Assembly: GCA_002502175.1 (NCBI GenBank) | Contig: DAPQ01000075.1 | Coordinates: 9,170-73,169, forward strand | Length of the DNA: 64,000 nt | Reading direction: 5' to 3' | From: Euryarchaeota archaeon UBA19 | Lineage (GTDB): Archaea; Thermoplasmatota; Poseidoniia; Poseidoniales; Thalassarchaeaceae | In this document: one piece after another, positions 30,726-51,647 of the stretch | Layout: every line of letters starts with the position of its first letter | Position numbering within the stretch: position 1 is the first letter of the stretch | Notes under the pieces: model-generated | What the model was told of the DNA's origin: nothing | Seen by the model: only the letters and a program-made list of their open reading frames with translations | The model's database searches: none | Translations under genes and position numbers: made by a program

Positions 30726-30742
30726 CGACGGCTACGCCGTCG
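30726..30742. other. Hairpin CGACGGC-TAC-GCCGTCG in a divergent intergenic region
   Basis: Perfect 7-bp stem with a 3-nt loop. It overlaps by 3 nt a second potential hairpin, TCGGACA-(15 nt)-TGTCCGA (30700-30728). Confidence 0.3.
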
Positions 30743-30833
30743 CGTACGTGAGAGGGCTAGAGAATTAGTGAATTTGATTTCAGTTCTGGGGTTGCATTGA
30801 AGACCTTACAGCCTCGCCCCATCTACTGATTGA

Positions 30834-31643: not shown

Positions 31644-31651
31644 ACTTCAAT

Positions 31652-34180: not shown

Positions 34181-34185
34181 TATCG

Positions 34186-34191
34186 CACCTG
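34186..34191 (-). promoter_or_regulatory. Shine-Dalgarno-like CAGGTG upstream of the STAND gene
   Basis: The minus strand reads aaatcgCAGGTGcgataATG. The GGTG core lies 5 nt from the start, within a small ATCGC/GCGAT hairpin (34182-34195). Confidence 0.45.
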
Positions 34192-34238
34192 CGATTTCTA
34201 TTATTCAAGAAATTAACCGTATGGTGGGCTTTATTGCT

Positions 34239-37200: not shown

Positions 37201-38468
37201 GAAGGTGCTTGAGTTCCATATTCTCCAGCAAGAATAGGTTCCTGTGCGGTTTCTGAAATTGAATTGTTTTCTGCCCTTACATCAAAACTTCCCAATAGCC
37301 ATAGTCCATTCCAACCACCAATAGGTCCAATGTCGTTATTGTGTATTTCAGCTTTGGATGAATATACTGCTATTCCAGAACCTTCCCCTGCTCCGGATAG
37401 TTCGTTATTGTGAATTCGCACGTCGGCTCCAGCGTAAGCAGTAATTGGAGTTCGTTGAGTAGTTGTGATTACATTATTTGCTATTTCAACATCATATTCG
37501 GTATTTCCAATTGCCTTTAGGCTATTCACATCAATACCATTGCAAGTGACTGAAATGGTAGAATCAATCACCTTTCCAGCTGAATTCCTGATACTAATCC
37601 CGAAATCACCACCGGCAAAATCTGAGTTTTCGACTCGAATAAATGTCTGAGAGGCCCAAATAGCAGACCTTCCTCCATCCCTATTTCCACAACCCTTGTT
37701 TGTTGATTGGAAAGTAGCATCCTGGAAAACCATCGGGGAAATTGGTGTGCCTCCGCCATAAATTTGCACTGCCTGACCTGTGACGCCGCTTTCTTCGTCA
37801 TTGCCTGCAACATATTCACCGCCAATGAAAGTTGGTTGGGCTAAATTGGCTGCGAGTACACTGGAAGTATTGATATCTTCAAATCTCATATCTCGCAGAG
37901 TCGGGCTTGCTCCGTCAAGAACTAATACTCCATATCGATATTCATATTCCAATTGAACATAGAATGGGACACCCCATGCGCCTTCAAAATGCATACTCCT
38001 CATTCCCGATTGGGACAAATCCATTGTATCTCGAAGAATTACACCCTCTCCACAGGAGGGGTCTTCAATCCATATTTGTGAGCTCCCAGTACCCAATCCG
38101 TAACATTCTCCTGTTGCATTGGAATTCCCTGGTTCTGACCATGTTAGAGTAATTGGGTTTCCAGAAGCAGCATTGCCGCTAGAACCACAGGATGCAACTC
38201 CTGCACACAGGTTACCACGGACGTCAAGCATAGTCCCGTTTGGTAATAAAATGTCAGTTCCGGGGTCGATTATCAGTTTGGCACCTGCGGCAATTGTAAC
38301 ATCTCCTGTGAGTTGATGTGTTCCACTCCATCTCTCGAGTCCAGTAATGGTTCCACTGGTAGTTTCATTATTTGCAGATACTGTTGAGGCTGGGCCAACT
38401 AAGGCCAACATAGTGCTAGTCAGCATCAAGAATACTAGGAACTGGCTTCTTACTCGGGTGCCGGTCAT
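34239..38468 (-). CDS. Giant surface protein: parallel beta-helix (PbH1-like) repeats + Ig-like domains + C-terminal TM anchor with acidic tail
   Basis: Signal peptide FLVFLMLTSTMLALVGPASTVSA. Beta-helix turns (VEIANNVITTT, VRIHNNELSGAGEGSGIAVYSSKAEIHNNDIG, AENNSISE, LYLANNTIST, VTIVDNEINAGGSADGIRA). Ig-like modules begin PPSVSV, APTVSVTSP and RPFVSLTSP. TM ISFVMIIAIVFVVIALLAGTLFF is followed by EEDDEEYDEVETDD. Confidence 0.8.
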   Translation of the reverse strand: MTGTRVRSQFLVFLMLTSTMLALVGPASTVSANNETTSGTITGLERWSGTHQLTGDVTIAAGAKLIIDPGTDILLPNGTMLDVRGNLCAGVASCGSSGNAASGNPITLTWSEPGNSNATGECYGLGTGSSQIWIEDPSCGEGVILRDTMDLSQSGMRSMHFEGAWGVPFYVQLEYEYRYGVLVLDGASPTLRDMRFEDINTSSVLAANLAQPTFIGGEYVAGNDEESGVTGQAVQIYGGGTPISPMVFQDATFQSTNKGCGNRDGGRSAIWASQTFIRVENSDFAGGDFGISIRNSAGKVIDSTISVTCNGIDVNSLKAIGNTEYDVEIANNVITTTQRTPITAYAGADVRIHNNELSGAGEGSGIAVYSSKAEIHNNDIGPIGGWNGLWLLGSFDVRAENNSISETAQEPILAGEYGTQAPSPTPARLYLANNTISTQGSGECSSQKWWGGSFTCPAIMAHRSGVTIVDNEINAGGSADGIRATGALLDVRRNIFNVQGSGAILQHYDSGFADSQQYGTLAFFSNNEWNGVSVTYNVSKSSVTVQSEYIPSPPPGEHPVLLSWSDQEAWVQNGWQNGVIPHEVRACDTCDDFTPYNFPLAINMDNNSTVFTFSNLSNLDLSKVKIETQPTKYAVQVQRAELVRFQTLVNGQRVENANVLIEDALGNDLYSLETDSDGYTPWFSLASNFHLDFRGLAGGDNPDGFADDEFEDSCSDGEDNDGDLLLDTDDPDCDYSAGTRELSLYRYTAYKFGYGLDSGEFTLSDTTYQDTLFLDNDPPSVSVIQNDGESFRRVVNLTGSAHDGTWAGIYETDELAQWDQKGFVHAVEIKDPFTSDWAAAGYATDSSGAEPGYVSRNNHPFSSWYYEYDMSGRQEGDYTFEFRAFDGLEYSPILTRTIKVNTEAPTVSVTSPSTQSTHTDGTVTFEGTAHDPYGCPIDCGTDIDQIYFQIEGPNYNVVTSTEGGTDWSWTWDFSGLPRDLATYTFTIWASDSNFCKGDIDECEAVVIDLQIDNQNSRPFVSLTSPQSGQIYAVDEKSIISGVARDNDGDVTRVDVEVFDVSNGYLNVFTGAVTEIESNGYWELEWDSRILTHNMQYLIKARSYDGYEFSDWMETQVIADNPPDADNNRPTFDSTNWQTEITLYCEFDTTSQNPCTTVEIDLLEFFDDVDGVNSLILSVYDDPARSSDDEFGLVINIGIDGVAFYDPKSMGFYNEDMDTWSLSNVIFVATDPFGSKEISTPVSFNVVPIEFYVGPPDQTTASDDELIIFSGSGLPGKTVRVTLGGIQVNSTVVLEDSTWELGISGAMLSKPVIPVFSISGSESIQGEEISPPSSGGGISFVMIIAIVFVVIALLAGTLFFSGVIALEEDDEEYDEVETDDSKGLRSDDHPGWLWDPEKEEWVPDPDHIGE

Positions 38469-38551: not shown

Positions 38552-39790
38552 TCATGAATTTAGATTAAACTCAGTTCTAATCTCTTCTAGCCATGCTTCT
38601 GCATTCAATTCACCATATCCTGATTTGTTTGAATGAATCGCATCAATATCTTGTGTCTTTAGGGATGAATTTGCGAGGGCCCCCTTCACCATATTCATCT
38701 CTTCAGAATCAAATTTATTGTCTTCCCCTCGCATTTCATCTCCATGAATTTGTAGAATTAAAGCAAGAGCTCCTACAACGATTACGGTTGAATCGGAGGT
38801 TCCTGTTGAATATGCATAAGGTGAGGAGAGTTCTGTCGATGCTGTAGAGAACATTCTGACTCCTGGTGCGGTAACTTCTGGCTTTTGATTAGGAAATTTT
38901 CTCTCCTCACTCGAATAAGGATCTATGTTGGAACCTACAGAACTATTTGCCCAAATTTTCCCATCCACTGTGGAGGCACCAACCGAAATTACCCCCGGGA
39001 TATTCGCTGGTATTGATACATCGTTAATATTCGCCTTATTGCCATTATTTCCAGCAGCGGCCACGACAAAAATTCCTGCATCCAATGCCTCGTTTACCGA
39101 CTGTACAGTTTCAGATTGTAGATTACTCATTCCACTTCCTGGGTCGCCACCTAAACTTAGACTAATGATATCAACATCTTGAGAAATTCTACACCACCTA
39201 ATCGCCAATGAGACTCTGTCCGACTGGCCTGCCTCTCCTTCAGGACCAAGGGCTAAGGCTACGGATATTGAAACGCTAGGGGCTGCCCCGACATATGTGC
39301 CATTGGCAATTAATAATCCAGCCATCAAGGTGCCGTGATAATTTTCTCCTATGTCACGGATATTTTCGTGCTCTCCAGAGTAAAAATCTCGAAATCCGAC
39401 TAGATTACTATTTTCGAAATCAGGGTGAGAATAATCAATTCCAGTATCCACTATGCAGACATGGACCCCATCCCCGAAGTAGCCCTGGTTTTGCAAATCC
39501 CTAATTCCTGAAGATTGATACGCCCACTCTGAATCAGGAAGGTAAGATATCAATAAAGGTTGAATCGATGACCACGTCATTAACAACAGAACCGTTCCAA
39601 TAGCGAAACTGGCAGCACCCCACGGCCATAGAAACTCCTTCATCGGCCCTAATGGCCAACGAAGCTCTCGTGCTTCTTGATCGGTTAAGCCATAGTCAGA
39701 GCCGGGATATCCCGGTGCCTGAGGGTCGACAGCGGTGAGCAACCTGCTATCTTCAGGTTCAGGCATTAACTCAAGGTCCTCGAGAGTCAT
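38552..39790 (-). CDS. Membrane-anchored subtilisin-like serine protease (peptidase S8)
   Basis: VCIVDTGIDYSHPDF (Asp), YHGTLMAGLL (His), STGTSDSTVIVVGALALI (Ser). N-terminal hydrophobic anchor AASFAIGTVLLLMTW. Confidence 0.82.
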   Translation of the reverse strand: MTLEDLELMPEPEDSRLLTAVDPQAPGYPGSDYGLTDQEARELRWPLGPMKEFLWPWGAASFAIGTVLLLMTWSSIQPLLISYLPDSEWAYQSSGIRDLQNQGYFGDGVHVCIVDTGIDYSHPDFENSNLVGFRDFYSGEHENIRDIGENYHGTLMAGLLIANGTYVGAAPSVSISVALALGPEGEAGQSDRVSLAIRWCRISQDVDIISLSLGGDPGSGMSNLQSETVQSVNEALDAGIFVVAAAGNNGNKANINDVSIPANIPGVISVGASTVDGKIWANSSVGSNIDPYSSEERKFPNQKPEVTAPGVRMFSTASTELSSPYAYSTGTSDSTVIVVGALALILQIHGDEMRGEDNKFDSEEMNMVKGALANSSLKTQDIDAIHSNKSGYGELNAEAWLEEIRTEFNLNS

Positions 39791-39871: not shown

Positions 39872-42800
39872 TCAGAATGGCGCACCGGGTCTTCTCGAAC
39901 CTGATCTTGTAAAGTACCAAACAACAAACACTAGGATAATTGCCAAAATTATTCCAATAACTGTGGTTGGTGTTGAATCATCTACTGCTTGAGCCTTGAG
40001 TGAGTATCTCTTGCTCACAGTCTCGGGTTCTTCACCAAACTCTTGGCCTTCTGTTGAGATTTCAAAGTCAAACCATTCCTGTGAAGGCCCATCGAAATCT
40101 GTCAAATTTATGTCGATTAGATAGGTTACCGAGTCCCCGGACAGAACATCTTGGGTGACGCTTGAGCTTACATTCTTTCCACGAACCGTTCCAACCAACT
40201 TGACCTTCTCAGCGTCAACTAATCCAGTATTTTCTACAACCACAGTAAAGGTGTGGATTGTTCCGAATAATGGATCTCCATTGGAATAAACATTGGAAAT
40301 CTCAAGAACTGGAAGTGATGTCTTCACTCTTATGACTAATGGAGGATAGGTTCCATTATTCTTGTCTGTGACTGAAATTGTAATGATGAAATCTTCAGTT
40401 CCTGTTGCATTCTCTGGTGCAATAACCTTGATTGTGTGAGTTGTGTCTACAAATGCACCTACAGTGTGTGATGTGGCACCTGTTCGTTGCCAATCTGGTG
40501 GAAGTTGCGTGTCATCAAATACAAATTCGAATCTCTCATCTCCATTACCACTATTGGTGAATAATAGAGGTATTGACAATTCCTCACCGGGGCGGATTCC
40601 ATAGACATCCAAGAGTGGCTCCCTTAATTCGAAATCATGGAATTGAGGAATTCTAACAATTACTTCTTGTTCAAACTGATAACCATCCGCTGAAGTGAAT
40701 CTAATATCTACAGTGTGACCATTGGTCAGTGACTGAGCCGTAGATTGATTGGCTGGAGTTATTCGAAGTAGTAGATTGTCGTAGGTTGTGCTATTGTTGC
40801 TATCTAAACCAAACTCAAAGGTGAAAGGAGAAGTCCAATTTTCAACAGACTGATCCCATACCTCTACACTCCAATACTGACCATCGGTACCTGCGACATT
40901 TCCTGATACGGTGTAACTAGACACCGTCTCATGTCCAAGATAATCAAGTGACATTGTGAACTCGATTGAATCATATTCACCTTCATCTCCAAGGGTGGCT
41001 TGAACATCATCGAACTCACCTTCATCAGTTAGTTCTCCACCAGTTACTGATACTATTGTAGCACTAATTGTATGGTTGGAAATTCTGTCGAAGAGTATGT
41101 CCTGAGTAACCGATGCGGTCAAATCCGTTCCAGAACCTGGTACGTTGATTGACTTGCTTGTGGAATATTCCATTACACGGTCCATTTGATCGACAGAGAA
41201 GCTTCCTTCAACCCCAATCATGCCTGTAGGCATCAGGATTGATATTTCACCAGCCTCAGTCAACATTGCATCCCATCGGACACCTGCTCCTGAAGACAGA
41301 ATGAATTCCACCTCATCAATAATCTCTGCACCTTGTATTTCGGATTCAGAAGCATGATGCTGTGTTCCATTAAAGTCAAGCCATTGAGTTGCAAGATATA
41401 GCCAACCACCATACAATAGATCGATGTCAACATTTCCGCCATCACTAATGTCTGCATCAATACTGGCCATTCCTACTAGATTAGATGATTCCAATGTTGC
41501 TCTAATTATCCAACGACCTGGTTCTACAGAAGCGGTCCATTGACCGTTCCATACTCCATCCTCGAATACCTTGTCAGGAACTACTCTATCTCGAACCATG
41601 CCATGTGAAGGAATCAAGATTAATTCGACTTGCTCACCAATGTTTGACAGGTCAGAGTGACTTACGTTTCCAAAAATGTTCACATATCCAGCGGTTAGCT
41701 CTATTTCTACCGAGTTTGGAGCGTTCATAGCAATGGATTCCATTTCTTGGTCGAATCCTTCTCTAAATGTTGAGACTTGCCAAGTTGTGTCTGCGGGAAC
41801 AAATACACTCCATTCGCCAGCGGCGTTGGTAATTTGGGAAATATTATCATGGCCTTCGCTGGTCATTAGAATTTCTACATCGGGTACGCCCTCTCCAACG
41901 TCAGCATCATCATCGTCATCATGATCCCAGAATATTGTTCCAGACATCTCATAGTGTGTTGATGCAATAATATCGATTAAATCATTCTCACCAGCAACTA
42001 AACCTCCATCTAACAATTCGATTGAAGAGATAACGTATCGAGTTCTATCTACGGTTTGGTTTAGTTCAATATTCCATGAACCAGATGAAATAATTCCTGA
42101 TGTTTGTCCAGATTCATCGGTACTGTCAAGATATACAGTTCCTAATCCATCATTAGAAGTTAGTTTCAAGTCCATATCTTGAAGATAAATTCCATTTGAA
42201 TCAGAAATTCTAACTGAGAATGAAGCAAGTTCACTGGTTGAAATGGTCTCAGCGTTGTTAGCGTTTTGCTCGGATACGGTAATCGTTGTTCGAACTCCTT
42301 CAATAACTCCGGTGTCTGTCTCTACAGAATCGATTACAACAATCCACTCTCCATCTGCCAAGTGGTCAATTAGTGTACCATTCATATCGGTCTTTCTAGT
42401 GATAACTTCACCACTGTTTTCCGGATTGATGAATCTAACTAACTGATCAACTAGTGGCCCACCACTTTCATTAGTAAATGTCAGGTCTACCTTCCATTCT
42501 GGATCAAAACCAATACTTCTGCTAACTACTTCTCCACCGAAGCCGACCTCAAAGTAGGCATCGCCTGTCATTATTCGAGTTCCGAAAATATCTCCGGCAC
42601 GAGCATTTGAGAGTTCTACATTGATTCGGTATGAACCCGCTTCTACAGGTACTCTTGCAAATCCTTGTGAAATCCATTCTTCACCATCTTCTGCTACATT
42701 AATCGTTAATCCTGCACTATTCTCGAGTGGGACAATGGAGAATTGGTAATTGACTAGCGTGCCATTGGTAACACTATTGTCGCCGGTGTTATCCAAGAAG

Positions 42801-45800
42801 AAATCTATCTCAAGGAAGGACATAGCAGGGTAAACGTACATCTCTACCGTATCATTTTCACCATCAACCATCAGAGTTGCTTCAGTTGCATTTAGCCACT
42901 CTAAATCGGTTGTAAATGTCCAGTTACCTTCGGGCAAAATTGTGTTAAATGTACCAAATTGGGTAACGTCAATATGCCACACAGCATCAATATCATCATT
43001 GGTCGCAAATACAGTAACCTGCTCCCATCCTTCTAGATTTGATGAGTAATAATTTCCTAATCGATTTAGATTTAGGTTTCCATTAACATCGTAACCCGGA
43101 CGTGCGACCATTGTGATATTTTCCATACCCTCTTCGACTGTGAATCGGGTACCATTAACCACATTCAGGACACTACCAAACACTGCAGCGTCAACTACAG
43201 AACCAATCGGCAATACGACGTTGAATACACCATTTGCGTCGGTAGTTTCGGTTGTTGTGAAATTTTCCCAATGGAAAATCACCTGAGTAAAGTCAACAAC
43301 CTCAGCTTGGATCGTGGAATTGGTGACTTCTGCATTTGTATCATAGTAAACTGTTCCAATTACATTCATTGATTCCCTGAAAGTAAAGGAAGTCGAAATG
43401 TCTGATTCAAGGTCAATTTGTTCCCATAATTGCTCGGAATCACTCAAGTCATGGCTGAGGATCCATTGACCTTGAGATAATTCCGCCAAGTATTCTCCAC
43501 TGACGTTATCGAATACAGCAATAACTGGTGCTGCTGAATTATCACTCTTTACCAGAGTCAAATTTTCGAGACCCTCAACAGATGTTTGTGAACCATCAAC
43601 GATTTGACTTAATGAGAATCTCAAATCGAATACAGTAGGTATTGGAGTTGGGAATTCAACTTGCGAATCCATTTCAGCATCGAATTCATGCCTCAACTCA
43701 ACTTCATTGAAGCCGTCTTCATCCATATCCAAAGCAAAGGTATACTCTCCTGGCATGATAGGACCGAACTCGAAAGAACCGTTCTCATCTGCGGTTAACA
43801 TACATGGCGCGTACATTACTTCACTACATTCTCCGAGAATAGTATCATTGTCAGATTCGGAGTGAACCATAGTTACAAAACCAGCCAAAGTATTGCCATT
43901 TTCATCGGTTAATGTTCCGGAAATGGATCCACCCGCAACATCGATTTGATGAAGTGACGGCACCCCTCTGAAAGGAACGTTAAATCCATCAATAATTTCG
44001 ATTCTAGTGCCATCGTTGAAGATAACTGCTACGTTGTAATTTCCAGGTATGGCGTCGATTAGGTGGAATGTTCCAGCTTGAACCATAGGCCCACTGAACT
44101 CACCCTCTCCGCTGAAAGTACCCGTGCCGTTTAGGGTTCCATAGGAATCTAGTTCTTCATTACTGGCGTCTACGGTGAATACACCTGCTCCAATTAGAGA
44201 CGAACCATTGTGTTCTTGTGAGAATGAGGATGTACCGTTTGAAGTAAATCTACCAGTTGCATTAACTGCACCCTCAATCAAGAAGTCTCCATCTGATAGG
44301 GAACAAACCGAGTAGTTCTCTGGCATTGTTCCATTTTCGTTACAATCTCCATCAACAATGTCCTCTCCATCAATTACTCCGGAGAGGGTTCCACGGCCGG
44401 TAAATTCACCGGATCCTGCTAGACTGTGCCCGTGAAGAATAGTCTGTGTGTGAGTCCCCACGAAATCATTGACTGTCATCAGACCATTGCTGATGACTTC
44501 TCCTTCACCAGTAAATGTCACTTGACCGATTCCTTGGAAAGCAAGGTCGGGGCCGTTTACGCTACCTGTAGAAGTTTCCAACATAATTGGTTGCATCTGA
44601 ATTTGATCCCAAGCAGGCGACAATTCAACAACAGCATCGGTGATTGCTTGACCACTGAACGAACCGGCGCCATTCCAAATTAATCGACCTGTAGAGAATG
44701 ATGGTTCTACGATGATATCCCCGTTAATTAGAGCTTGACCATTGGAATGGCCATCTTCTCCGGAGACATTAATGATAGTCTCGGATAACCACTGAGAGCC
44801 GGATACATTACCCAATATTCCAGTGATAAGGTTGACATTTCTTTCACCAATTGTTGATTCGGTTGCTACATCTTGAAGCATACCTCCACCACCGCTTGCT
44901 AATTCATCACGAGCCGCCCTTAGATCAGACTCGCCAAAGAAGGCTGAAACTCTTATCTTCCCTGCTGGAACAGTGAATGAATAATCTCCGTTTTCATCTG
45001 CATCTACTGTACCAATAGGAATCCAATAAGTTCGAGGGTCTTGATCAGTTACAGTGCCATTTTCATCGGGGACCTCTTCGCCACTAAAGGCGTCCCTTTC
45101 GATTAATATTCTAGCATTAGGGACAGGACCTATTCCGTCTAATTCAACTGTACCTTCTATAGTCGCACCGCTGTAGTATTTGACGACCTTAACATTTGAA
45201 TTTGCTCTACCGATAGCAGCATAGCCACCATCGAAAATATCTGGAACGCTGTTATTGTCTTCATCGGGTGAGTCTGAACCGTCATCGTACCAATTTGCGA
45301 TGACGAAGTGATTCATCATTGCACCAGGAAGCGGGAAGGCGTTCTCTAGTGGGGAACCGGGGGTTCCGCTGATAGCCCATGTTGGCCCTGGTTGTGATGG
45401 GTCAACTGTTAATCCCAAGCTTGAAGTTCCATATCCAACATAGATTCTTGCAACCATAGTTTCGAAGAAAGATTCGGTTTGCTGATACTGTATATCGACA
45501 AGCTGAATCATGTCTGTGGAATCTTCCATTGCTCCAGACTGCTGCTTGACAACATCCGACATATACTCCTGTTCATAGCGCTCAGCACTCATGAAGACAG
45601 TTGGTCTATCTCCTCGCTGAGTCTCATAGACCGATTCAATGTAATGATTCGGATCTAGACCAGAAAGGGTAGTTGGCGCGTAGAAGATTCCAGTTGTTTG
45701 ACCTCTGTGGTAACTTTGATCCGCGTAATACGCTCCACCAAGCGGATACAATCTATCGTCTATTGCGAAGTAGCGAATCTCATTATTTCGTTCGATAGTT

Positions 45801-48800
45801 TCTCCCAAACTACCTTGATAATCCTGAACTTCGTAGACAACTTGAGAAGAAATATCATGGTACATTTCCACTAATTCATCTAAGGTAAGTGCAGTGGTCA
45901 GGAAAGCACGTGATAGACCTAACTTAGCATTAGCACGATGTAGGTTTGTTGAAACGTCATCATAACTTTCGATTAAGTCGGCAGTGTATCTGTAACCACC
46001 AATTTCGTAATGCGTTGTTTGCTCCTCATAGGGTTGGCTAGAGCCACGTGCTTGGTCGAAGATCGATTTAGCCTCTGTCTCATTTGTGGTTGCATTTCCA
46101 ACTTGCTTTCCATCCTTGAAGACGAACCACATTGGTTCGGTTGGAAGTCCATTTTCATCAAGTATGGTACCGTGCATCAAATCTGTAGTAATCTTCAGGT
46201 TTCCAGCTGTAAAGGAAGAATCTTGTACCTCCTGTACATTTTGATAGATTAGTACCAAAGAACGATCGATTACGAATTGCTTTTGACCTGGTCCAAGTGA
46301 TAGAATATCATGGAACTCCTCAACTTGTTCTGTTGTTAGGTGGTTCTGAATGGCTTGGGTAAATTCCTCGCCAAATTCTCCGTTTCCGGAATATTGCCTA
46401 TCTCCTTGAGCCAGTGTGGCGATAAACATAGCAAGTGTATCTTCTTGACTGGAGGATAGTAACATTCCACCACTATGAGGAATACCGGACTGGAAGTTAT
46501 CAGCAACGGTAGGGTGCTCTCCCGAATCCAATGCTTGGAATCCATAATCCCACCAAGAGACGAAAGCGGGTCTTTGGCCAAAGTCCTCATCAGAATCTTG
46601 TTCTGAAAGCCATTCATAGGCCATATTCCAACCTCCGCCGTTGAATCCAGGGCCGAATGTTCCCATGTACCAACAACCATTTCCACAATTTGCTGTTGGA
46701 TTGTATGAACTGCTGTCTAGAAGTGAAAGCCCTCCGATATCGAATCTCATTACGTCTGGAGTAATATCGTAAATTACCTGATCTACATCTCCCGAAGCAG
46801 TCTCACCTCTTGGAATACCTGAATCGATACCGTAGGTTGCATGTTGAGTTGCCACCAGCATGAATACTAGCACTAAGGCTGGAATCATCGGCTTCTTCAT
46901 ACTAGCAGTTCTAGCAGAACGGAAGCGAGCTCTTGGAGTTCCAATTCCTGCGCGACGCCATTCTTTGATGAAGCCGGAGAAATCAGCCATATTCCAAAGA
47001 GCGGCGATTCCGATAGCCCCAACAACGGCCATTGCAGGAGTTGCGTTTAGAATGAATCTACCAGCGGTCCAAGCCATGTATGAAGCGATTAGAACCCACA
47101 AACCAACGAGCGAAAGGCCTTGCTTTTCTTCTCTGGCCCCTCGCCAAAGTAGGATGAATGCATAACCTAATGCAATCAGTGTAACAATCGGGCCGAAGGA
47201 AGCGAATAGTACACCTCTACTCGGGGCCTGAGCCTCACCGATTGTTCCGAATATCTTGTTCTTTGAGAAATAGAATCCACCAGTGAATAAGATGTCCCAG
47301 CCGTCGTAATATTCAGCGGTTTGTAGAATCCACAATGCCGATAGAATACCGCCAAATAGCAAGCCACCGCTTCCTAATACCAATAGCCAAGGTTTGTCGC
47401 GGAAGCTAGATGCGACCCAACCTAATGCGATTGTAAATCCAACAATGTAGAACATAGGTTGGAATCCACTTGGGGCCCATAGTAGGTTAAGTCCAGGCCA
47501 TATGTAGAATGGTAATGGGATTAGGAATGTTGTGAACATCATCTGCAAAGCGGCCGAGGTAAGCGGTAGGCTGTCACGTCGGCGGAACATATTCAGAACT
47601 ATTTGGAAAGCAAATGCGAGGAAAAGAATACCAGGACCGTAAACGAATCCTTTCCAACCAAGCGCTACTGTAGAGAAGCTAATACCTGCTAGTGTCGCAT
47701 AGGACATCATAACTGGATTTCGATTCCACATCTCGCGAATTCCAGCAACCAAGTAAAGTGGATTGGCGCTTGGGTCGCGGAATACCCTTTCACTACCAAT
47801 TTCTCCTAATGCTCGAACCCAGAAGTAGATGGCTAGGGTTAGGAAAAGAAGTGCAAAGGAGTCGTGGTCTGCTAGACCAAACGTTGAGTGGCTAATGTGC
47901 CCGGGCATCAATGCCATGAGCCATGCAGCGAATATTCCTGCCTGTGCGCTGTGAAGGCGGTTTGCAATTCCAGCAACTGGCAGAACAATCAATGCTCCGA
48001 AGATGGCTGGCAAACCTGCAACGGACCACCAAACGACTTCTTCGGCTGCGATACCAGTTAGCCATTCAAGAGCGAGGCCACCTAATGCTAGGCACCACGA
48101 AAACAGTGGGGGTCGAGGATTGATTCCTCCACTAGGGTAGGATCGGTCAGCATCGAAAATGAAGTGTGCATGCTCAGCTACAATGTAATCTACAACCCTC
48201 TTCATGTACCAAGGGTCTGAACCTCCAGTCATATCCCAAAGCCCTGTTATGTTTGCATTCATTGCAGGAAGGACGTTCCAACCGGTTCTAATCAAGAGAC
48301 CAACAATTACTGCAGAGCCAACTAGGATGGAATAGGAATTATCTCTCCACCATAAGCGGAACTGACTAGGTTCACGACGAGGGGCAATATCCCCGAACCT
48401 TCCACTAGATGCAAGGATGATTGCAAGTACATTCAACCAGAACGTAATGAAGAACCAAGAGAATGCACCACCGAAGTCATTACCGGCTAGGAATTCTAAT
48501 TGTTCAGGGAGGCTAACTCCGATCTCAACCAAGTGAGATAGAGTGTAAATTAGCCAATTTACCGCAACTACTGCCCCTAGAACGTGCCATCTCTCAGCAC
48601 GACAGAAGGCTACAAACATCACTACTACTGAGGTTACTAGAGCCCACACCCCTCCAAGGTAATGGTGTTCCTCAAAGGTAGCAGCATCTGAGATAGTTGC
48701 TATTGAATAGAGTGGAATTAAGTTAACAATCAAGAGAATGAATGAAGTGATTAGTATATCACGATGCTCTGAGAAATCTATTTTCTTTGGAAGCCTATCG

Positions 48801-49408
48801 AACAAAGATCCATTTCCACCATCATACAAAACTCCCCTGAACAATACAGCAAAAATTGTTCCAAGCATCAATGATGCAGCATAGAAAGAAAAGAAATTAG
48901 CGGCTATACCGGCCCTTTGGACATCGATTAATAGATTCTGTAAACTATCTCCTTCAGATAGTGCCAATTCCGGCATAGAGGCGGCATAGGCCACAGAAAC
49001 GTGAAACCCAGCGACCATAGAGAATAGGATTGTTGCTTCCTCATTTCTATTCGATTTTACAAGAATGAGTGTTGACATAGCCACGAATGCAAAAGTAGTT
49101 GCTAGTATGGCGTCAATAAATCCGAGTATTTCCAGGGCTATCGGTCCGACTGCAAAGAGTAGTACGAATAGCGAGTTTCGGTTTAATGGTGAATCTTCTG
49201 GAAGGGCAGATACCCAAAACCTTCCCATTACAGCCGCTAACGCGGCTGCGACGGGGAGGATAACCAACTTTCCTGTGTCAATCATCGCATCATCAGAGAG
49301 GGATGTGGCAGCGAAGAGTAACAGAAGTAATCCTGCTAACACCGCTGGTGCCGAAACCAGTCCATTGTACTGGCCGACGTCCCTCGTTTTCCCGTTTTCA
49401 TAAGACAT
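39872..49408 (-). CDS. aglB: Giant (3178 aa) oligosaccharyltransferase AglB/STT3 fused to an extra polytopic N-domain and a roughly 2100-aa extracellular repeat region with C-terminal TM anchor
   Basis: STT3 signature in canonical order: GGSDPWYMKRVVDY, GLADHDSF, FGTIGEAQ (TIXE) and WWDYG (nt 46541-46555), followed by TVADNFQSG. About 9-10 extra hydrophobic segments (by eye) precede the core. Repetitive beta-sandwich-like sequence follows it. Terminal TM IGIILAIILVFVVWYF. Confidence 0.85.
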   Translation of the reverse strand: MSYENGKTRDVGQYNGLVSAPAVLAGLLLLLFAATSLSDDAMIDTGKLVILPVAAALAAVMGRFWVSALPEDSPLNRNSLFVLLFAVGPIALEILGFIDAILATTFAFVAMSTLILVKSNRNEEATILFSMVAGFHVSVAYAASMPELALSEGDSLQNLLIDVQRAGIAANFFSFYAASLMLGTIFAVLFRGVLYDGGNGSLFDRLPKKIDFSEHRDILITSFILLIVNLIPLYSIATISDAATFEEHHYLGGVWALVTSVVVMFVAFCRAERWHVLGAVVAVNWLIYTLSHLVEIGVSLPEQLEFLAGNDFGGAFSWFFITFWLNVLAIILASSGRFGDIAPRREPSQFRLWWRDNSYSILVGSAVIVGLLIRTGWNVLPAMNANITGLWDMTGGSDPWYMKRVVDYIVAEHAHFIFDADRSYPSGGINPRPPLFSWCLALGGLALEWLTGIAAEEVVWWSVAGLPAIFGALIVLPVAGIANRLHSAQAGIFAAWLMALMPGHISHSTFGLADHDSFALLFLTLAIYFWVRALGEIGSERVFRDPSANPLYLVAGIREMWNRNPVMMSYATLAGISFSTVALGWKGFVYGPGILFLAFAFQIVLNMFRRRDSLPLTSAALQMMFTTFLIPLPFYIWPGLNLLWAPSGFQPMFYIVGFTIALGWVASSFRDKPWLLVLGSGGLLFGGILSALWILQTAEYYDGWDILFTGGFYFSKNKIFGTIGEAQAPSRGVLFASFGPIVTLIALGYAFILLWRGAREEKQGLSLVGLWVLIASYMAWTAGRFILNATPAMAVVGAIGIAALWNMADFSGFIKEWRRAGIGTPRARFRSARTASMKKPMIPALVLVFMLVATQHATYGIDSGIPRGETASGDVDQVIYDITPDVMRFDIGGLSLLDSSSYNPTANCGNGCWYMGTFGPGFNGGGWNMAYEWLSEQDSDEDFGQRPAFVSWWDYGFQALDSGEHPTVADNFQSGIPHSGGMLLSSSQEDTLAMFIATLAQGDRQYSGNGEFGEEFTQAIQNHLTTEQVEEFHDILSLGPGQKQFVIDRSLVLIYQNVQEVQDSSFTAGNLKITTDLMHGTILDENGLPTEPMWFVFKDGKQVGNATTNETEAKSIFDQARGSSQPYEEQTTHYEIGGYRYTADLIESYDDVSTNLHRANAKLGLSRAFLTTALTLDELVEMYHDISSQVVYEVQDYQGSLGETIERNNEIRYFAIDDRLYPLGGAYYADQSYHRGQTTGIFYAPTTLSGLDPNHYIESVYETQRGDRPTVFMSAERYEQEYMSDVVKQQSGAMEDSTDMIQLVDIQYQQTESFFETMVARIYVGYGTSSLGLTVDPSQPGPTWAISGTPGSPLENAFPLPGAMMNHFVIANWYDDGSDSPDEDNNSVPDIFDGGYAAIGRANSNVKVVKYYSGATIEGTVELDGIGPVPNARILIERDAFSGEEVPDENGTVTDQDPRTYWIPIGTVDADENGDYSFTVPAGKIRVSAFFGESDLRAARDELASGGGGMLQDVATESTIGERNVNLITGILGNVSGSQWLSETIINVSGEDGHSNGQALINGDIIVEPSFSTGRLIWNGAGSFSGQAITDAVVELSPAWDQIQMQPIMLETSTGSVNGPDLAFQGIGQVTFTGEGEVISNGLMTVNDFVGTHTQTILHGHSLAGSGEFTGRGTLSGVIDGEDIVDGDCNENGTMPENYSVCSLSDGDFLIEGAVNATGRFTSNGTSSFSQEHNGSSLIGAGVFTVDASNEELDSYGTLNGTGTFSGEGEFSGPMVQAGTFHLIDAIPGNYNVAVIFNDGTRIEIIDGFNVPFRGVPSLHQIDVAGGSISGTLTDENGNTLAGFVTMVHSESDNDTILGECSEVMYAPCMLTADENGSFEFGPIMPGEYTFALDMDEDGFNEVELRHEFDAEMDSQVEFPTPIPTVFDLRFSLSQIVDGSQTSVEGLENLTLVKSDNSAAPVIAVFDNVSGEYLAELSQGQWILSHDLSDSEQLWEQIDLESDISTSFTFRESMNVIGTVYYDTNAEVTNSTIQAEVVDFTQVIFHWENFTTTETTDANGVFNVVLPIGSVVDAAVFGSVLNVVNGTRFTVEEGMENITMVARPGYDVNGNLNLNRLGNYYSSNLEGWEQVTVFATNDDIDAVWHIDVTQFGTFNTILPEGNWTFTTDLEWLNATEATLMVDGENDTVEMYVYPAMSFLEIDFFLDNTGDNSVTNGTLVNYQFSIVPLENSAGLTINVAEDGEEWISQGFARVPVEAGSYRINVELSNARAGDIFGTRIMTGDAYFEVGFGGEVVSRSIGFDPEWKVDLTFTNESGGPLVDQLVRFINPENSGEVITRKTDMNGTLIDHLADGEWIVVIDSVETDTGVIEGVRTTITVSEQNANNAETISTSELASFSVRISDSNGIYLQDMDLKLTSNDGLGTVYLDSTDESGQTSGIISSGSWNIELNQTVDRTRYVISSIELLDGGLVAGENDLIDIIASTHYEMSGTIFWDHDDDDDADVGEGVPDVEILMTSEGHDNISQITNAAGEWSVFVPADTTWQVSTFREGFDQEMESIAMNAPNSVEIELTAGYVNIFGNVSHSDLSNIGEQVELILIPSHGMVRDRVVPDKVFEDGVWNGQWTASVEPGRWIIRATLESSNLVGMASIDADISDGGNVDIDLLYGGWLYLATQWLDFNGTQHHASESEIQGAEIIDEVEFILSSGAGVRWDAMLTEAGEISILMPTGMIGVEGSFSVDQMDRVMEYSTSKSINVPGSGTDLTASVTQDILFDRISNHTISATIVSVTGGELTDEGEFDDVQATLGDEGEYDSIEFTMSLDYLGHETVSSYTVSGNVAGTDGQYWSVEVWDQSVENWTSPFTFEFGLDSNNSTTYDNLLLRITPANQSTAQSLTNGHTVDIRFTSADGYQFEQEVIVRIPQFHDFELREPLLDVYGIRPGEELSIPLLFTNSGNGDERFEFVFDDTQLPPDWQRTGATSHTVGAFVDTTHTIKVIAPENATGTEDFIITISVTDKNNGTYPPLVIRVKTSLPVLEISNVYSNGDPLFGTIHTFTVVVENTGLVDAEKVKLVGTVRGKNVSSSVTQDVLSGDSVTYLIDINLTDFDGPSQEWFDFEISTEGQEFGEEPETVSKRYSLKAQAVDDSTPTTVIGIILAIILVFVVWYFTRSGSRRPGAPF

Positions 49409-50869: not shown

Positions 50870-51568
50870 TCAATATGGAACAGACTTCAATCCGAGTCTG
50901 TAGCCTATTATATTGAACGAGCGATGAATTATTGGGGTCAAAACAATGATTGCAATAATTGGTGGAGTTAAATCAGAATGCATCATTATCTGGTCTCTGA
51001 ATAAAATTGCAGCAGCTAGGAATATGAAAATTGCAAAGGGAAGAGTGTCTAATAGAGGGGCTTTTGAACTAACTTCTCCTTCCCTTTTCAGCCCCTGTCT
51101 GCGTTTTACAAAAGAACCCGCCATATCACCCAACATACAGGCTAACCCTAGGGTGAATCCAAGCACAAATGCAGCGCTCCATTCATTCCCAATCCAAAAC
51201 CAATCCGAAGGTTCAGAGATTAACAATGGGTCGATGAATGGCCGGTTTGAGGAAGGAGTATTTCCTTCCCAAATGTAATGCGAAATCATAACCAGTATTC
51301 CAGAAAAGACGCCCCCTCCAATAAGCCCCTCCCAAGACTTACCATCACCTAGTAACCTATTCCCATCAGAATGAATTTTACCTCCATCGATCTTGTGGTT
51401 TTCAAAGCCGAATTTATCAGGAATCCATTTTCCAAAAAGCATTGCTCCTGTATTTGCTAAATATGCAGGCCCGTATAGAATTAAGACGGTTAGCACGTTA
51501 ATCGCAAAATCTCCGGCTGTAGCATCGGGGAAAGCAAGGTCCGCCATGCTTGACATTAGTCCCGCCAT
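50870..51568 (-). CDS. carS: CDP-archaeol synthase
   Basis: Matches the A. fulgidus CarS pattern from memory: LGDGKSWEGLIGG (vs LGDGKTWRGFVGG), GDMAGSFVKRRQG (vs GDLCGSFIKRRFG) and C-terminal GYRLGLKSVPY (vs YRLNLKEVPW). The start is uncertain (51568, 51556 or 51622). Confidence 0.88.
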   Translation of the reverse strand: MAGLMSSMADLAFPDATAGDFAINVLTVLILYGPAYLANTGAMLFGKWIPDKFGFENHKIDGGKIHSDGNRLLGDGKSWEGLIGGGVFSGILVMISHYIWEGNTPSSNRPFIDPLLISEPSDWFWIGNEWSAAFVLGFTLGLACMLGDMAGSFVKRRQGLKREGEVSSKAPLLDTLPFAIFIFLAAAILFRDQIMMHSDLTPPIIAIIVLTPIIHRSFNIIGYRLGLKSVPY

Positions 51569-51647
51569 ATACTCATGCGAGAAGAACTCTCGGTTTCTTG
51601 CACATGCCGCCGATTCCTTCATTGATTACTTATTGTACGCGTCATCG

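What the first reader, a model, noticed from the sequence alone, without database searches (positions are those of the whole stretch)
39872..49408. 3178-aa oligosaccharyltransferase: AglB/STT3 core sandwiched between an extra polytopic domain and a giant extracellular repeat scaffold
Seen in the sequence: one uninterrupted 9.5-kb ORF. Residues about 390-1000 carry the STT3/AglB catalytic signature in canonical order: GGSDPWYMKRVVDY (loop-1 acidic motif), GLADHDSF (second DxD-type motif), FGTIGEAQ (TIXE) and WWDYG (nt 46541-46555). About 340 aa with roughly 9-10 additional hydrophobic segments (by eye) precede the core. About 2100 aa of repetitive beta-sandwich-like sequence follow it, with an acidic run DHDDDDDADVGEG and a terminal TM helix IGIILAIILVFVVWYF plus a basic tail.

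Established knowledge: characterised AglB/PglB/STT3 catalytic subunits are roughly 600-1000 aa with a modest soluble domain.

Inference: here the N-glycosylating enzyme is anchored at both ends and carries a huge ectodomain. It might double as an envelope component or hold substrates near the active site. The neighbouring giant secreted proteins contain many N-x-S/T sequons.
Basis: partly seen in the sequence, partly recalled or inferred. Interest (0 to 1): 0.75.

Follow-up and report, generated by a model that had tools for sequence, protein, structure and literature searches.

The report
Giant three-part AglB of Poseidoniales archaea
The abundant ocean archaea of Marine Group II carry their protein-glycosylating enzyme (AglB/STT3) as one 3,178-residue chain, with an unknown 10-helix membrane module in front and a long sugar-site-rich surface stalk with its own membrane anchor behind, and no paper I could search describes this build.

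Summary
Window 39872-49408, minus strand, is one 3,178-aa ORF.

- **Catalytic core.** Residues ~349-995 are an STT3/AglB (GT66) core. All catalytic motifs are present and invariant in 112 homologs.
- **N-terminal module.** Residues 1-345 form a confidently modelled 10-helix membrane domain (pTM 0.83). It has no Pfam, PDB-sequence or PDB-fold match. Among 1.84 billion representative proteins it occurs only at the N-terminus of these ~3,150-3,230-aa proteins.
- **Ectodomain.** Residues ~996-3148 comprise a family-specific alpha/beta region, then divergent beta-sandwich domains resembling pilin and adhesin stalks. They are not a recent repeat array.
- **C-terminus.** A TM helix is followed by an invariant RRPxAPF tail.

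The architecture is not an assembly artefact. At least 585 stretches in species-representative genomes encode it, and the 80 retrieved are all Poseidoniales, matching over the whole length wherever the contig allows, down to 35% identity. PurD lies upstream and an S8 subtilase downstream wherever flanking DNA exists.

The ectodomain has 1.9-fold more N-x-S/T sites than expected, about 20 of them at conserved positions.

A published genus-O1 genome table lists the 9.5-kb gene as its only aglB and reports transcripts. No searchable paper discusses the architecture.

Verdict: a real, order-wide new variant of a known enzyme. The roles of the added modules are inferred, not shown.

The parts
39872..49408 (-). 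Whole gene: 3,178-aa giant AglB (stop codon 39872-39874)
   Evidence: ORF list and translation. Full-length collinear orthologs of 3,122-3,337 aa at 43-99% identity. At least 585 genome stretches.
48374..49408 (-). aa 1-345: lineage-specific N-terminal membrane module of 10 TM helices. The invariant residues are R165, P232, W255, E272, W274, W285, E295, G297, W318, F323, W324, G336, G339, P343, R351, W353, W354 and Y359; the last three lie at the start of STT3 TM1. D340 is nearly invariant. The conserved residues cluster from TM8 onwards.
   Evidence: AF2 model with pLDDT 85.5 and pTM 0.83, helices 11-37 to 312-334. No PDB fold match: best E 0.31, TM-score at most 0.23. No Pfam or PDB profile hit. 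No internal duplication and no similarity to the STT3 TM region. Found only at the N-terminus of ~3,150-3,230-aa proteins among 1.84e9 representatives. Invariant residues.
46799..48373 (-). aa 346-870: STT3/AglB (GT66) transmembrane catalytic domain. It carries D398 (GGSDPWY), D514-H515-D516 (GLADHDSF) and T722-I-G-E725 (TIXE).
   Evidence: PF02516 E 1.5e-18; TIGR04154 E 1e-45. Aligns to A. fulgidus AglB-L 3WAJ residues 16-291 and to eukaryotic STT3A/B. The motif residues are invariant in 112 homologs, and this is the most conserved part of the protein at 70-88% identity.
46424..46798 (-). aa 871-995: external central-core segment with WWDYG (aa 952-956, nt 46541-46555). This is the last stretch with detectable AglB homology.
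   Evidence: A profile of aa 925-1420 matches the A. fulgidus AglB-S C-terminal domains 3VU0 and 3VGP only over aa 926-993 (E 2.4e-6). Weak PF22627 AglB_core-like at 949-989. WWDYG is invariant.
45167..46423 (-). aa 996-1414: family-specific alpha/beta ectodomain region. aa 1200-1250 is 81% conserved.
   Evidence: AF2 model of aa 860-2059 gives helices plus strands with pLDDT 76-92 over aa ~989-1209. No PDB sequence homology. Conservation profile.
39965..45166 (-). aa 1415-3148: stalk of divergent beta-sandwich domains (CarboxypepD_reg / CnaB / SdrD-B / DUF11 / CARDB-like). It includes a G-rich long-strand beta region (aa ~1616-1772), DxDxDG acidic loops at 1894 and 2495, invariant Cys pairs 1689/1702 and 1861/1869, and most of the 39 ectodomain sequons.
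   Evidence: PF13620 is found in all 15 scanned homologs (best 2.3e-18); DUF11, SdrD_B, SpaA, NPCBM_assoc and CARDB appear in subsets. Foldseek hits to TIE, BcpA, SpaD, SdrD and RrgB pilin/adhesin stalks (E 1.8e-10 to 1e-6) and to Sulfolobus SlaB (5.9e-6). No tandem repeats and few profile self-matches. Sequons.
39875..39964 (-). aa 3149-3178: C-terminal TM helix plus a short basic tail that ends in the invariant R-R-P-x-A-P-F
   Evidence: Hydropathy peak 2.65 at 3149-3167. R3172, R3173, A3176, P3177 and F3178 are invariant in 15 diverse sequences and nearly invariant (at least 90%) in 58.
38552..39790 (-). Conserved downstream partner: 412-aa S8 subtilase with an N-terminal hydrophobic anchor, 81 nt after the AglB stop
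   Evidence: PF00082 E 8.8e-39. It lies directly downstream of the giant gene in every related locus that has flanking DNA, at 37-96% identity.
34239..38468 (-). Conserved neighbour: 1,409-aa signal-peptide protein with a right-handed beta-helix, Big_7 domains and a TM helix near aa 1336
   Evidence: Orthologs of 1,414-1,424 aa sit in the same position in L001, L003 and L004.
31652..34180 (-). Conserved neighbour: 842-aa cytoplasmic STAND-type ATPase with TPR repeats
   Evidence: Conserved position.

Best explanation
This is most likely the working, and probably the only, N-oligosaccharyltransferase (AglB, GT66) of Marine Group II archaea (order Poseidoniales). The window comes from an MGIIb genus-O1 (Thalassarchaeaceae) genome. 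In this order the enzyme is built as one chain of about 24 membrane helices and about 2,280 external residues.

**Shown**
- The STT3 core (aa ~349-995) has every catalytic motif intact. It is the most conserved part of the protein.
- A 10-helix N-terminal module is found nowhere else.
- A family-specific alpha/beta region and a long stalk of beta-sandwich domains follow the core.
- The chain ends in a TM helix and an invariant tail.
- Length, domain order and the PurD / AglB / S8-subtilase neighbourhood are conserved across the order.
- The gene is transcribed in the sea.

**Inferred**
- The core transfers a dolichol-linked glycan to N-x-S/T sites of proteins emerging at the outer face of the membrane.
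- With an even number of extra helices in front, the N-terminus is cytoplasmic.
- The ectodomain is therefore outside and tethered at both ends, forming a loop or arch.
- That ectodomain is itself heavily N-glycosylated, probably by the same enzyme, and is stabilised by Ca2+ loops and disulfides.
- It acts as a surface or glycocalyx stalk that keeps the active site within a layer of surface proteins. The co-conserved beta-helix protein and the membrane-anchored S8 protease encoded next to it may belong to that layer.
- The conserved TM8-TM10 and cytoplasmic linker of the N-module probably pack on the STT3 domain. They may play an accessory role comparable in principle to the extra subunits of eukaryotic OST, such as lipid-linked glycan handling or partner docking. 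Its actual activity is unknown.
For: **Enzyme identity**
- PF02516 at 68 bits against a 24.5 cut-off; TIGR04154 E 1e-45.
- Alignment to AglB-L 3WAJ and to STT3A/B.
- D398, D514/H515/D516, E725 and WWDYG are invariant in 112 homologs, and the core is 70-88% identical to its homologs against 30-55% for the additions.

**Real, conserved fusion**
- More than 120 full-length clusters.
- At least 585 genome stretches; the 80 retrieved are all Poseidoniales and match residues 1-3178 wherever the contig allows, down to 35% identity.
- The divergent members keep N-module + STT3 + stalk at 3,146-3,185 aa and are named Poseidoniales.

**N-module**
- Confident 10-helix model. It is an orphan by Pfam, PDB sequence, PDB fold and self-comparison. 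It occurs only in these proteins.

**Stalk**
-.

**Glycosylation of the ectodomain**
- 39 sequons against 21.4 +/- 4.1 in shuffles, z 4.3, 0 of 5,000 shuffles reaching the observed count.
- Ratio 1.89 across 44 non-redundant homologs, against a reverse-motif control count of 24.
- About 20 positions are conserved, and N1547 and N2215 are present in all.
- Five cytoplasmic proteins in the window show no enrichment.

**Neighbourhood**
-.

**Expression and sole-copy hint**
- In Damashek et al. 2021 (PMC9723583), supplementary file 4, genus-O1 MAG gene 305 (27778-37315) is annotated AglB/GT66 and is followed by 'Halolysin'.
- It has transcript coverage and log2FC 2.05 (padj 0.06) in O1-active samples. 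Gene 307 is also listed with a positive fold change (log2FC 1.9), but it is not significant (padj 0.27).
- K07151, COG1287 and aglB occur only in that gene within the MAG's ~1,250-gene table.
Against: - No biochemical or proteomic evidence was available. Activity, self-glycosylation, topology and the envelope role are all inferred.
- The score against the curated archaeal STT3 subfamily model is far below its cut-off (156 against 450 bits).
- The position of the DK/MI motif, which forms part of the Ser/Thr pocket in characterised enzymes, reads N-S-G-G-M-L-L, which fits neither canonical form.
- The AF2 model of the segment around WWDYG had low confidence when cut away from the membrane domain.
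- The stalk-fold matches are generic beta-sandwich similarities with low global TM-scores.
- A second STT3 paralog cannot be excluded. The only evidence is a single MAG's annotation table, and the MAG may be incomplete.
- aa 2060-3148 were not modelled.
Confidence: 0.6

Rival explanations
1. Precursor polyprotein. The chain is cut after the AglB part, for example by the S8 subtilase encoded next to it. This would give a normal-sized enzyme and a separate, C-terminally anchored surface glycoprotein. The fusion would then serve co-translation, co-localisation and immediate glycosylation of an envelope protein that has no signal peptide of its own.
For: - The S8 subtilase is directly downstream in every locus with flanking DNA, across the whole order.
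- It has a hydrophobic N-terminal anchor.
- Other surface proteins in the window also end in a TM helix plus a short tail, so the C-terminal half resembles a typical surface protein of this organism.
- aa 1001-1100 is the least conserved and most gap-rich stretch after the core: 29-42% identity and 26% gaps at 1051-1100.
Against: - No cleavage motif was identified.
- aa 1100-1500, just after the variable stretch, is highly conserved (up to 81%) and continuous with the core. That fits an integral enzyme domain better than a linker.
- The protease may simply be one of the many extracellular peptidases of these protein-degrading archaea.
- There is no proteomic evidence either way.
Confidence: 0.15
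2. Substrate-handling platform rather than envelope structure. The ectodomain and the N-module act like the accessory subunits of eukaryotic OST. They would bind unfolded acceptor proteins or the lipid-linked glycan, or dock the enzyme to the Sec translocon, and so widen or tune site occupancy.
For: - The added modules are under purifying selection and keep constant length.
- The most conserved additions lie next to the catalytic parts: TM8-10 with the linker, and aa 1100-1500.
- The luminal domains of eukaryotic OST subunits are also beta-sandwiches with single TM anchors (my own knowledge, not tested here).
Against: - The top 50 of 152 Foldseek matches for the N-module were all non-significant. 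None was an OST chain, although the PDB library contains yeast and human OST complexes.
- There are no Pfam hits to OST subunit families.
- A 1,700-aa stalk is far larger than any known substrate-binding accessory.
Confidence: 0.15
3. Catalytically inactive relic. The STT3 part serves only as a membrane anchor for a giant adhesin, and glycosylation is done by another enzyme.
For: - The DK/MI position is non-canonical.
- The score is below the cut-off of the curated archaeal subfamily model.
Against: - All metal-binding and catalytic motif residues (D398, D514, H515, D516, E725, WWDYG) are invariant across 112 homologs.
- The core is the most conserved region of the protein.
- No other AglB is annotated in the O1 MAG table.
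Confidence: 0.03
4. Assembly or gene-calling artefact: a chimeric contig, or a missed stop or frameshift that joins separate genes.
For: None found.
Against: - The same uninterrupted architecture appears in hundreds of independent assemblies: single-cell genomes (AG-404-A19), long-read MAGs with contigs of 0.7-1.6 Mb (LRMED-021 and LRMED-022), and short-read MAGs from many oceans.
- Length stays within 3,122-3,337 aa.
Confidence: 0.01

Closest known systems
Archaeal AglB, e.g. Archaeoglobus fulgidus AglB-L (PDB 3WAJ/3WAK/5GMY/7E9S); family GT66 / Pfam PF02516
   Same: - Homologous membrane domain from TM1 onwards.
- GGxDPWY-type first acidic motif, D-H-D second motif, TIxE motif and WWDYG in the same order.
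- An external domain follows the last TM helix.
   Different: - 3,178 aa against 875 aa for the crystallised chain.
- About 345 extra residues (10 TM helices) precede TM1.
- Homology to the AglB external domain ends about 40 residues after WWDYG.
- About 2,150 further external residues and a second membrane anchor follow.
- The DK/MI position is non-canonical.
- Scores only 156 bits against the 450-bit cut-off of TIGR04154.
Eukaryotic multi-subunit OST (STT3A/B with ribophorins, OST48, DAD1, OST4, TMEM258 and others; PDB 6S7O, 6FTI, 6EZN)
   Same: - The catalytic STT3 subunit is homologous: hits at E 1e-6 to 2e-3 over aa ~397-534.
- Conceptually, extra TM helices and beta-rich extracytoplasmic domains surround the catalytic subunit.
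   Different: - Here the extras are in the same polypeptide.
- They show no sequence or fold similarity to any OST accessory subunit.
- The analogy is functional speculation only.
Stalks of Gram-positive pilins and MSCRAMM adhesins (BcpA 3KPT, SpaD 4HSS, RrgB 2Y1V, SdrD B-domains, B. anthracis TIE 6FWV) and the Sulfolobus S-layer anchor SlaB (8QOX_B)
   Same: - Tandem CnaB / prealbumin-type beta-sandwich domains: Foldseek E 1.8e-10 to 6e-6, probability about 1.
- Pfam CarboxypepD_reg, SpaA and SdrD_B hits.
- DxDxDG-type acidic loops.
- A C-terminal membrane anchor, as in SlaB.
   Different: - About 10% sequence identity.
- No sortase or archaeosortase signal.
- The stalk is covalently continuous with an enzyme.
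- The domains are mutually divergent rather than repeated.

Membership tests
STT3/AglB/PglB oligosaccharyltransferase (CAZy GT66, Pfam PF02516) | Significant match to the family profile over the membrane domain | tested here: met
   PF02516 E 1.5e-18, 68 bits against a gathering score of 24.5, aa 383-608. All 15 scanned homologs match. 3WAJ E 2.4e-11.
STT3/AglB/PglB oligosaccharyltransferase (CAZy GT66, Pfam PF02516) | First acidic (DxD-type) motif in external loop 1 | tested here: met
   GGSDPWY aligns with GGNDPWY of AglB-L. D398 is invariant.
STT3/AglB/PglB oligosaccharyltransferase (CAZy GT66, Pfam PF02516) | Second acidic motif (DxD / DxH) | tested here: met
   GLADHDSF aligns with GFNDHH of AglB-L. 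D514, H515 and D516 are invariant.
STT3/AglB/PglB oligosaccharyltransferase (CAZy GT66, Pfam PF02516) | TIXE/SVSE motif in external loop 5 | tested here: met
   T722-I723-G724-E725 are invariant, in the most conserved 50-aa block of the protein at 88%. Its position relative to the other motifs is canonical.
STT3/AglB/PglB oligosaccharyltransferase (CAZy GT66, Pfam PF02516) | WWDYG motif at the start of the external domain | tested here: met
   W952-W-D-Y-G956 are invariant. The motif aligns with WWDYG of AglB-L and AglB-S.
STT3/AglB/PglB oligosaccharyltransferase (CAZy GT66, Pfam PF02516) | DK or MI motif (DxxKxxx[MI] / MxxIxxx[IVW]) completing the Ser/Thr pocket | tested here: inconclusive
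   In the HMMER alignment to 3VU0, the D-A-A-K of AglB-S falls on N978-S-G-G981, followed by M-L-L. S979, G980, M982, L983 and L984 are invariant. This fits neither canonical form, and the alignment is short and may be shifted.
STT3/AglB/PglB oligosaccharyltransferase (CAZy GT66, Pfam PF02516) | Transfer of a lipid-linked glycan to Asn of N-x-S/T | not testable with these tools
   No biochemical test is possible. The only indirect signs are sequon enrichment in the protein's own ectodomain and transcription in situ.
NCBIfam TIGR04154 archaeo_STT3 (archaeosortase A system-associated subfamily) | Score at or above the curated cut-off (450 bits) | tested here: not met
   156.5 bits, covering model positions 3-575 of 831 only. 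The C-terminus has no PGF-CTERM-type motif before the TM helix.
CarboxypepD_reg / CnaB-type beta-sandwich stalk domains (Pfam PF13620 and relatives) | Profile match above the gathering score, and fold similarity | tested here: met
   PF13620 at 34.5 bits against 32.3 in the window protein, aa 1828-1893. All 15 homologs match, best 2.3e-18. Foldseek hits to pilin and adhesin stalks.
Accessory subunits of eukaryotic OST (ribophorins, OST48, DAD1, OST3/6, OST4, TMEM258) | Sequence or fold similarity of the N-module or ectodomain to any subunit | tested here: not met
   No Pfam hit in aa 1-372 in any of 15 homologs. The best Foldseek PDB match for the N-module has E 0.31, and no OST chain is among the matches shown.
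Archaeal S-layer / envelope glycoproteins | Lattice-forming abundant surface protein | not testable with these tools
   Only a generic fold match to SlaB (8QOX_B, E 5.9e-6) and sequon enrichment. No abundance or imaging data were available.

The most novel reading that the evidence does not exclude
Poseidoniales have compressed an entire 'OST complex plus envelope protein' into one gene.
- The orphan 10-helix N-module would be a new kind of membrane machine that feeds the enzyme, for example by handling, flipping or recycling the dolichol-linked glycan, or by docking to the translocon.
- The 2,280-residue self-glycosylated ectodomain would be a principal building block of the still-unknown MGII cell envelope.
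- The invariant cytoplasmic RRPxAPF tail would be read by the co-conserved TPR/STAND ATPase.
- The enzyme that glycosylates the cell surface would then itself be the cell surface.
Probability: 0.12. Interest if true: 0.85.

Novelty: new variant of a known kind. Interest (0 to 1): 0.6.

Why it matters
[quoted passage not shown] 2018, PMC6461757). They are still uncultured, and none of the MGII papers I searched describes their cell envelope or N-glycosylation system.

This gene gives a concrete, order-wide and transcribed handle on both questions. It also enlarges what a GT66 enzyme can look like: roughly three times the length of the characterised AglBs I know of. It adds a membrane domain that has a confident predicted fold but no counterpart among solved structures.

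The conserved AglB / S8 protease / beta-helix protein / TPR-ATPase gene string defines a candidate surface-biogenesis module. It could be tested by metaproteomics, heterologous expression or cryo-ET of enrichments.

The length and sequence of this gene would also serve as a diagnostic marker for Poseidoniales contigs.

Tried and rejected
1. **Misassembly or frameshift: rejected.** Hundreds of independent collinear orthologs.
2. **Recent repeat array: rejected.** No tandem repeats. A sliding 110-aa profile self-comparison found only three or four weak domain pairs: 2306-2369 with 2396-2457, 2015-2078 with 2487-2551, and 1929-1985 with 2397-2448.
3. **N-module as a duplicated or degenerate GT-C/STT3 membrane domain, or an internally duplicated transporter-like fold: rejected.** hhalign probabilities below 1%.
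4. **N-module as a known family: nothing found.**
   - No Pfam hit.
   - No PDB hit by sequence or profile.
   - No PDB fold match.
   - Archaeosortase was considered because of the TIGR04154 name. There is no matching profile, and the only Cys of the module (C269) is not conserved.
5. **N-module as a stand-alone protein elsewhere: rejected.** The short hits (for example P0124, 359 aa) are fragments on 1-4 kb contigs.
6. **Extending AglB homology into aa 996-1420: failed.** The profile search against PDB stops at aa 993.
7. **Occurrence outside Poseidoniales: none found.** All named members are Poseidoniales, MGII/III or Thermoplasmatota MAGs. One very divergent 3,146-aa member (P0158) has no name.
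8. **Literature: no description found.**
   - Seven full-text searches found no paper holding both AglB and any MGII term, and none discussing a giant STT3.
   - Nikolayev et al. 2020, on AglB phylogeny, is not held in the library, so I could not check whether it mentions length outliers.
9. **Glycosylation gene island: rejected.** The window is a housekeeping region (GAPDH, PheT, RNase HII, GluRS, DnaJ, S15, PurD, CarS) with no glycosyltransferase cluster.


Full report
**1. Observation**

The window holds one uninterrupted ORF at 39872..49408 on the minus strand, 3,178 aa with an ATG start.
- GGSDPWY at 395
- GLADHDSF at 511
- TIGEAQ at 722
- WWDYG at 952 (nt 46541-46555)
- DHDDDDD at 2495
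- IGIILAIILVFVVWYF at 3151, followed by TRSGSRRPGAPF

Upstream, the PurD stop codon is followed by a T8 run. A TTATAA element sits about 60 nt before the ATG, and GGTGA sits 8 nt before it. The gene therefore looks like it has its own start signals, although this is read by eye only.

**2. The enzyme core**

Pfam STT3 (PF02516) matches aa 383-608 at E 1.5e-18. NCBIfam TIGR04154 (archaeal STT3) matches aa 362-990 at E 1e-45, but at 156 bits it is far below that subfamily's 450-bit cut-off.

Against solved structures, the best hits are the A. fulgidus AglB-L entries 3WAJ and 5GMY, followed by eukaryotic STT3A and STT3B. The alignment starts at residue 16 of AglB-L and at aa 366 of the query. GGSDPWY aligns with GGNDPWY, and GLADHD aligns with GFNDHH.

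I aligned the query with 111 full-length homologs and profiled conservation:
- The core (aa 350-1000) is the most conserved part, at 70-88% mean identity to the query.
- D398, D514, H515, D516, T722, I723, G724, E725 and W952-G956 are all invariant.
- This is the pattern of an active enzyme, not a relic.

A profile of aa 925-1420 matches the minimal AglB-S external domains 3VU0 and 3VGP only over aa 926-993. Detectable AglB homology therefore ends about 40 residues after WWDYG. At the position of their DK motif the family reads N-S-G-G-M-L-L, which fits neither the DK nor the MI form.

**3. The N-terminal module**

An AlphaFold2 model of aa 1-372, built on a 58-sequence alignment, is confident: pLDDT 85.5 and pTM 0.83. 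It shows ten membrane helices (11-37, 50-68, 78-94, 100-118, 122-143, 160-189, 216-237, 253-271, 275-296, 312-334), then a loop, then helix 349-371, which is STT3 TM1.

An even helix count keeps the N-terminus on the cytoplasmic side, as STT3 TM1 requires. It also puts the R-rich linker GRFGDIAPRRE on the inside.

The module is an orphan by every test available:
- no Pfam hit in any of 15 homologs
- no PDB hit by sequence or profile
- no Foldseek PDB match (best E 0.31, TM-score at most 0.23)
- no internal duplication and no similarity to the STT3 membrane region (hhalign probability below 1%)

I ran an exhaustive hmmsearch of its profile against 1.84 billion representative proteins:
- It found only 56 proteins.
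- Every complete one is 3,146-3,228 aa with the module at residues 1 to about 370.
- The rest are contig-end fragments.

Conservation is uneven. aa 1-250 are about 35-45% identical, and aa 251-350 are about 56-64% identical. Invariant residues (W255, E272, W274, W285, E295, G297, W318, F323, W324, G336, G339, P343, R351, W353, W354) and the nearly invariant D340 cluster in TM8-TM10 and the linker to STT3 TM1.

**4. The ectodomain and second anchor**

An AF2 model of aa 860-2059 (pLDDT 73, pTM 0.55) shows four regions:

| Residues | Model result |
|---|---|
| ~860-985, around WWDYG | Low confidence, as expected for a piece cut away from the membrane domain |
| ~989-1320 | Alpha/beta region, pLDDT 76-92 over aa ~989-1209 |
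| 1415-1510 | Beta-sandwich |
| 1539-2019 | High-confidence all-beta stretch with very long strands in the G-rich GxGxFxGxG part |

Foldseek against PDB returns stalks of Gram-positive pilins and adhesins (TIE 6FWV at 1.8e-10, then BcpA, SpaD, SdrD and RrgB) and Sulfolobus SlaB (5.9e-6). Global TM-scores are low, as expected for multi-domain chains.

Pfam finds CarboxypepD_reg in all 15 scanned homologs. DUF11, SdrD_B, SpaA, NPCBM_assoc, Big_1 and CARDB appear in subsets.

The region is not a recent repeat array. There are no DNA tandem repeats, and only a few weak profile self-matches.

Several features fit an extracellular, Ca2+-stabilised and disulfide-bonded stalk, by inference:
- The 'acidic run' at 2495 and a second motif at 1894 have the DxDxDG form, with conserved flanking residues.
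- The Cys pairs 1689/1702 and 1861/1869 are invariant.

The chain ends with a strong TM helix (3149-3167) and a tail whose last residues R-R-P-x-A-P-F are invariant in 15 diverse sequences and nearly invariant in 58.

**5. Sequons**

The window protein has 42 N-x-S/T sites (x not Pro), 39 of them after aa 1050.

For the ectodomain:
- 39 are observed against 21.4 +/- 4.1 in 5,000 shuffles (z 4.3; none reached 39).
- Across 44 non-redundant homologs the observed/expected ratio averages 1.89 (range 1.19-2.86).
- The reversed motif, used as a control, averages 24.
- About 20 sequon positions are shared by at least 60% of sequences, and N1547 and N2215 are shared by all.

Five cytoplasmic proteins in the window show no enrichment. 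The two big neighbours are only mildly enriched or not at all: 23 against 14.7 expected, and 12 against 13.2.

The protein's own ectodomain is therefore the clearest predicted glycosylation target in the region.

**6. Distribution and context**

The protein search returned more than 120 clusters of 3,122-3,337 aa at 43-99% identity. Source names include 'uncultured marine group II/III euryarchaeote' and 'Thermoplasmatota'.

The scan of one genome per GTDB species gave these results:
- The 80 retrieved are all Poseidoniales. Where the contig allows, they match residues 1-3178 down to 35% identity.
- The closest is 99% identical (WTHI01000035.1).
- MGIIb-O1 / Thalassarchaeum genomes are 90-95% identical, which places the window in genus O1.

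Divergent clusters are also named Poseidoniales.

Gene order CarS, PurD, giant AglB, S8 subtilase, ~1,420-aa beta-helix membrane protein, STAND/TPR ATPase and ~1,900-aa secreted protein is kept in orthologs at 74%, about 53% and 44% identity. A metallo-beta-lactamase gene lies between the ATPase and the ~1,900-aa gene in two of the three.

In all 80 genome loci, PurD precedes and the S8 subtilase follows wherever flanking DNA exists.

The rest of the window is ordinary housekeeping.

**7. Prior knowledge**

Seven full-text searches found no paper that combines AglB with any MGII term or discusses a giant STT3. The main MGII comparative papers do not mention oligosaccharyltransferase or glycosylation.

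One paper, Damashek et al. 2021 (PMC9723583), lists an 'oligosaccharyltransferase' among genes enriched when genus O1 is active. Its supplement shows the following:
- This is gene 305 of MAG SIMO Bin 19-2, coordinates 27778-37315 (9.5 kb).
- Prokka names it AglB, and the GT66 match has E 9.3e-75.
- It is followed by 'Halolysin'.
- Transcript coverage is non-zero, with log2FC 2.05 (padj 0.06).
- K07151, COG1287 and aglB occur only in that gene in the MAG's ~1,250-gene table.

The gene is therefore annotated and known to be expressed, and is probably the sole AglB. Its architecture has not been described in anything I could search.

**8. Interpretation**

*Shown:*
- an intact GT66 core
- two lineage-specific additions under purifying selection
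- order-wide conservation of length, order and neighbourhood
- sequon enrichment
- transcription

*Inferred:*
- the topology (24 TM helices, with the ectodomain outside and tethered at both ends)
- self-glycosylation
- a structural or surface role for the stalk
- an accessory role for the N-module
- a functional link to the S8 protease, the beta-helix protein and the TPR ATPase

*Rivals:*
- The main rival is that the chain is a precursor cut by the adjacent protease.
- A substrate-handling role for the additions is also open.
- An inactive relic or an artefact is very unlikely.

**9. Verdict**

This is a real and unusual variant of a known enzyme family, and it is universal in a globally abundant uncultured order. 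It contains a membrane module with a confident predicted fold and no known relative.

It is not a new kind of system, and the function of the additions remains unproven. Interest is 0.6.

Noticed in passing
window 24902-51622 (minus strand) and loci L001, L003, L004: A conserved gene string: CDP-archaeol synthase, PurD, giant AglB, S8 subtilase, ~1,410-aa beta-helix/Big_7 membrane protein, STAND ATPase with TPR repeats, a metallo-beta-lactamase on the opposite strand, and a ~1,900-aa acidic secreted protein. It is kept in orthologs at 74%, about 53% and 44% AglB identity, although the beta-lactamase is absent from L003. The PurD / AglB / S8 core holds in all 80 genome loci with flanks. It may be a surface-biogenesis module.
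   Followed up: partly
window 39875-39964 (aa 3149-3178) and 31652-34180: The cytoplasmic tail after the last TM helix ends in R-R-P-x-A-P-F in nearly all homologs. A TPR-containing STAND ATPase is a conserved neighbour, and TPR domains often bind C-terminal peptides. A tail-TPR interaction is an untested idea.
   Followed up: no
window 30834-31643 (+): In orthologous loci, the 269-aa metallo-beta-lactamase-fold protein next to the STAND ATPase also carries precomputed hits to PF23023 (Anti-Pycsar Apyc1). This is an unexpected label for a chromosomal archaeal gene, and its meaning is unclear.
   Followed up: no
window 24902-30655 (-): A 1,917-aa signal-peptide protein, very acidic (D+E 19.5%), has no Pfam hit. 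Its C-terminus reads like thrombospondin type-3 Ca-binding repeats (DTDGDWANDFFE), and one ortholog has a faint TSP3_bac hit. It has 23 sequons against 14.7 expected.
   Followed up: partly
window 59271-62024 (+): A 917-aa membrane protein (N-terminal and C-terminal hydrophobic segments) has a borderline Pfam CD36-family match: 30.1 bits against a 26.5 cut-off, with no single stretch passing. CD36 is a eukaryotic scavenger-receptor and lipid-transfer family, so a hit in an archaeon is worth a second look.
   Followed up: no
window 22161-23159 (-): A single 332-aa ORF combines a pyroglutamyl peptidase (Peptidase_C15, aa 10-179) with a NUDIX hydrolase domain (aa 203-321). This is an unusual fusion.
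   Followed up: no
window 46466-46486 (aa 975-981 region): Where characterised AglB and PglB carry the DK or MI motif of the Ser/Thr-binding pocket, this family has an invariant P-x-S-G-x-M-L-L. This could mean a different way of reading the +2 position of the sequon.
   Followed up: partly
window 47045-47053 (aa 788-790): The sequon N788-A-T inside the STT3 membrane domain (FILNATPAMA) is present in all 44 non-redundant homologs. It may be a conserved glycosylation site of the enzyme itself or simply a structural motif.
   Followed up: no
window 51393-53339 (+) versus 50870-51622 (-): The mechanical 648-aa ORF (TTG start) overlaps the CDP-archaeol synthase gene by about 230 nt. The called gene in the corresponding position of ortholog locus L001 is 542 aa, so the true start is probably further downstream. 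The protein ends in a TM helix plus an acidic tail, as several other surface proteins in this window do.
   Followed up: no
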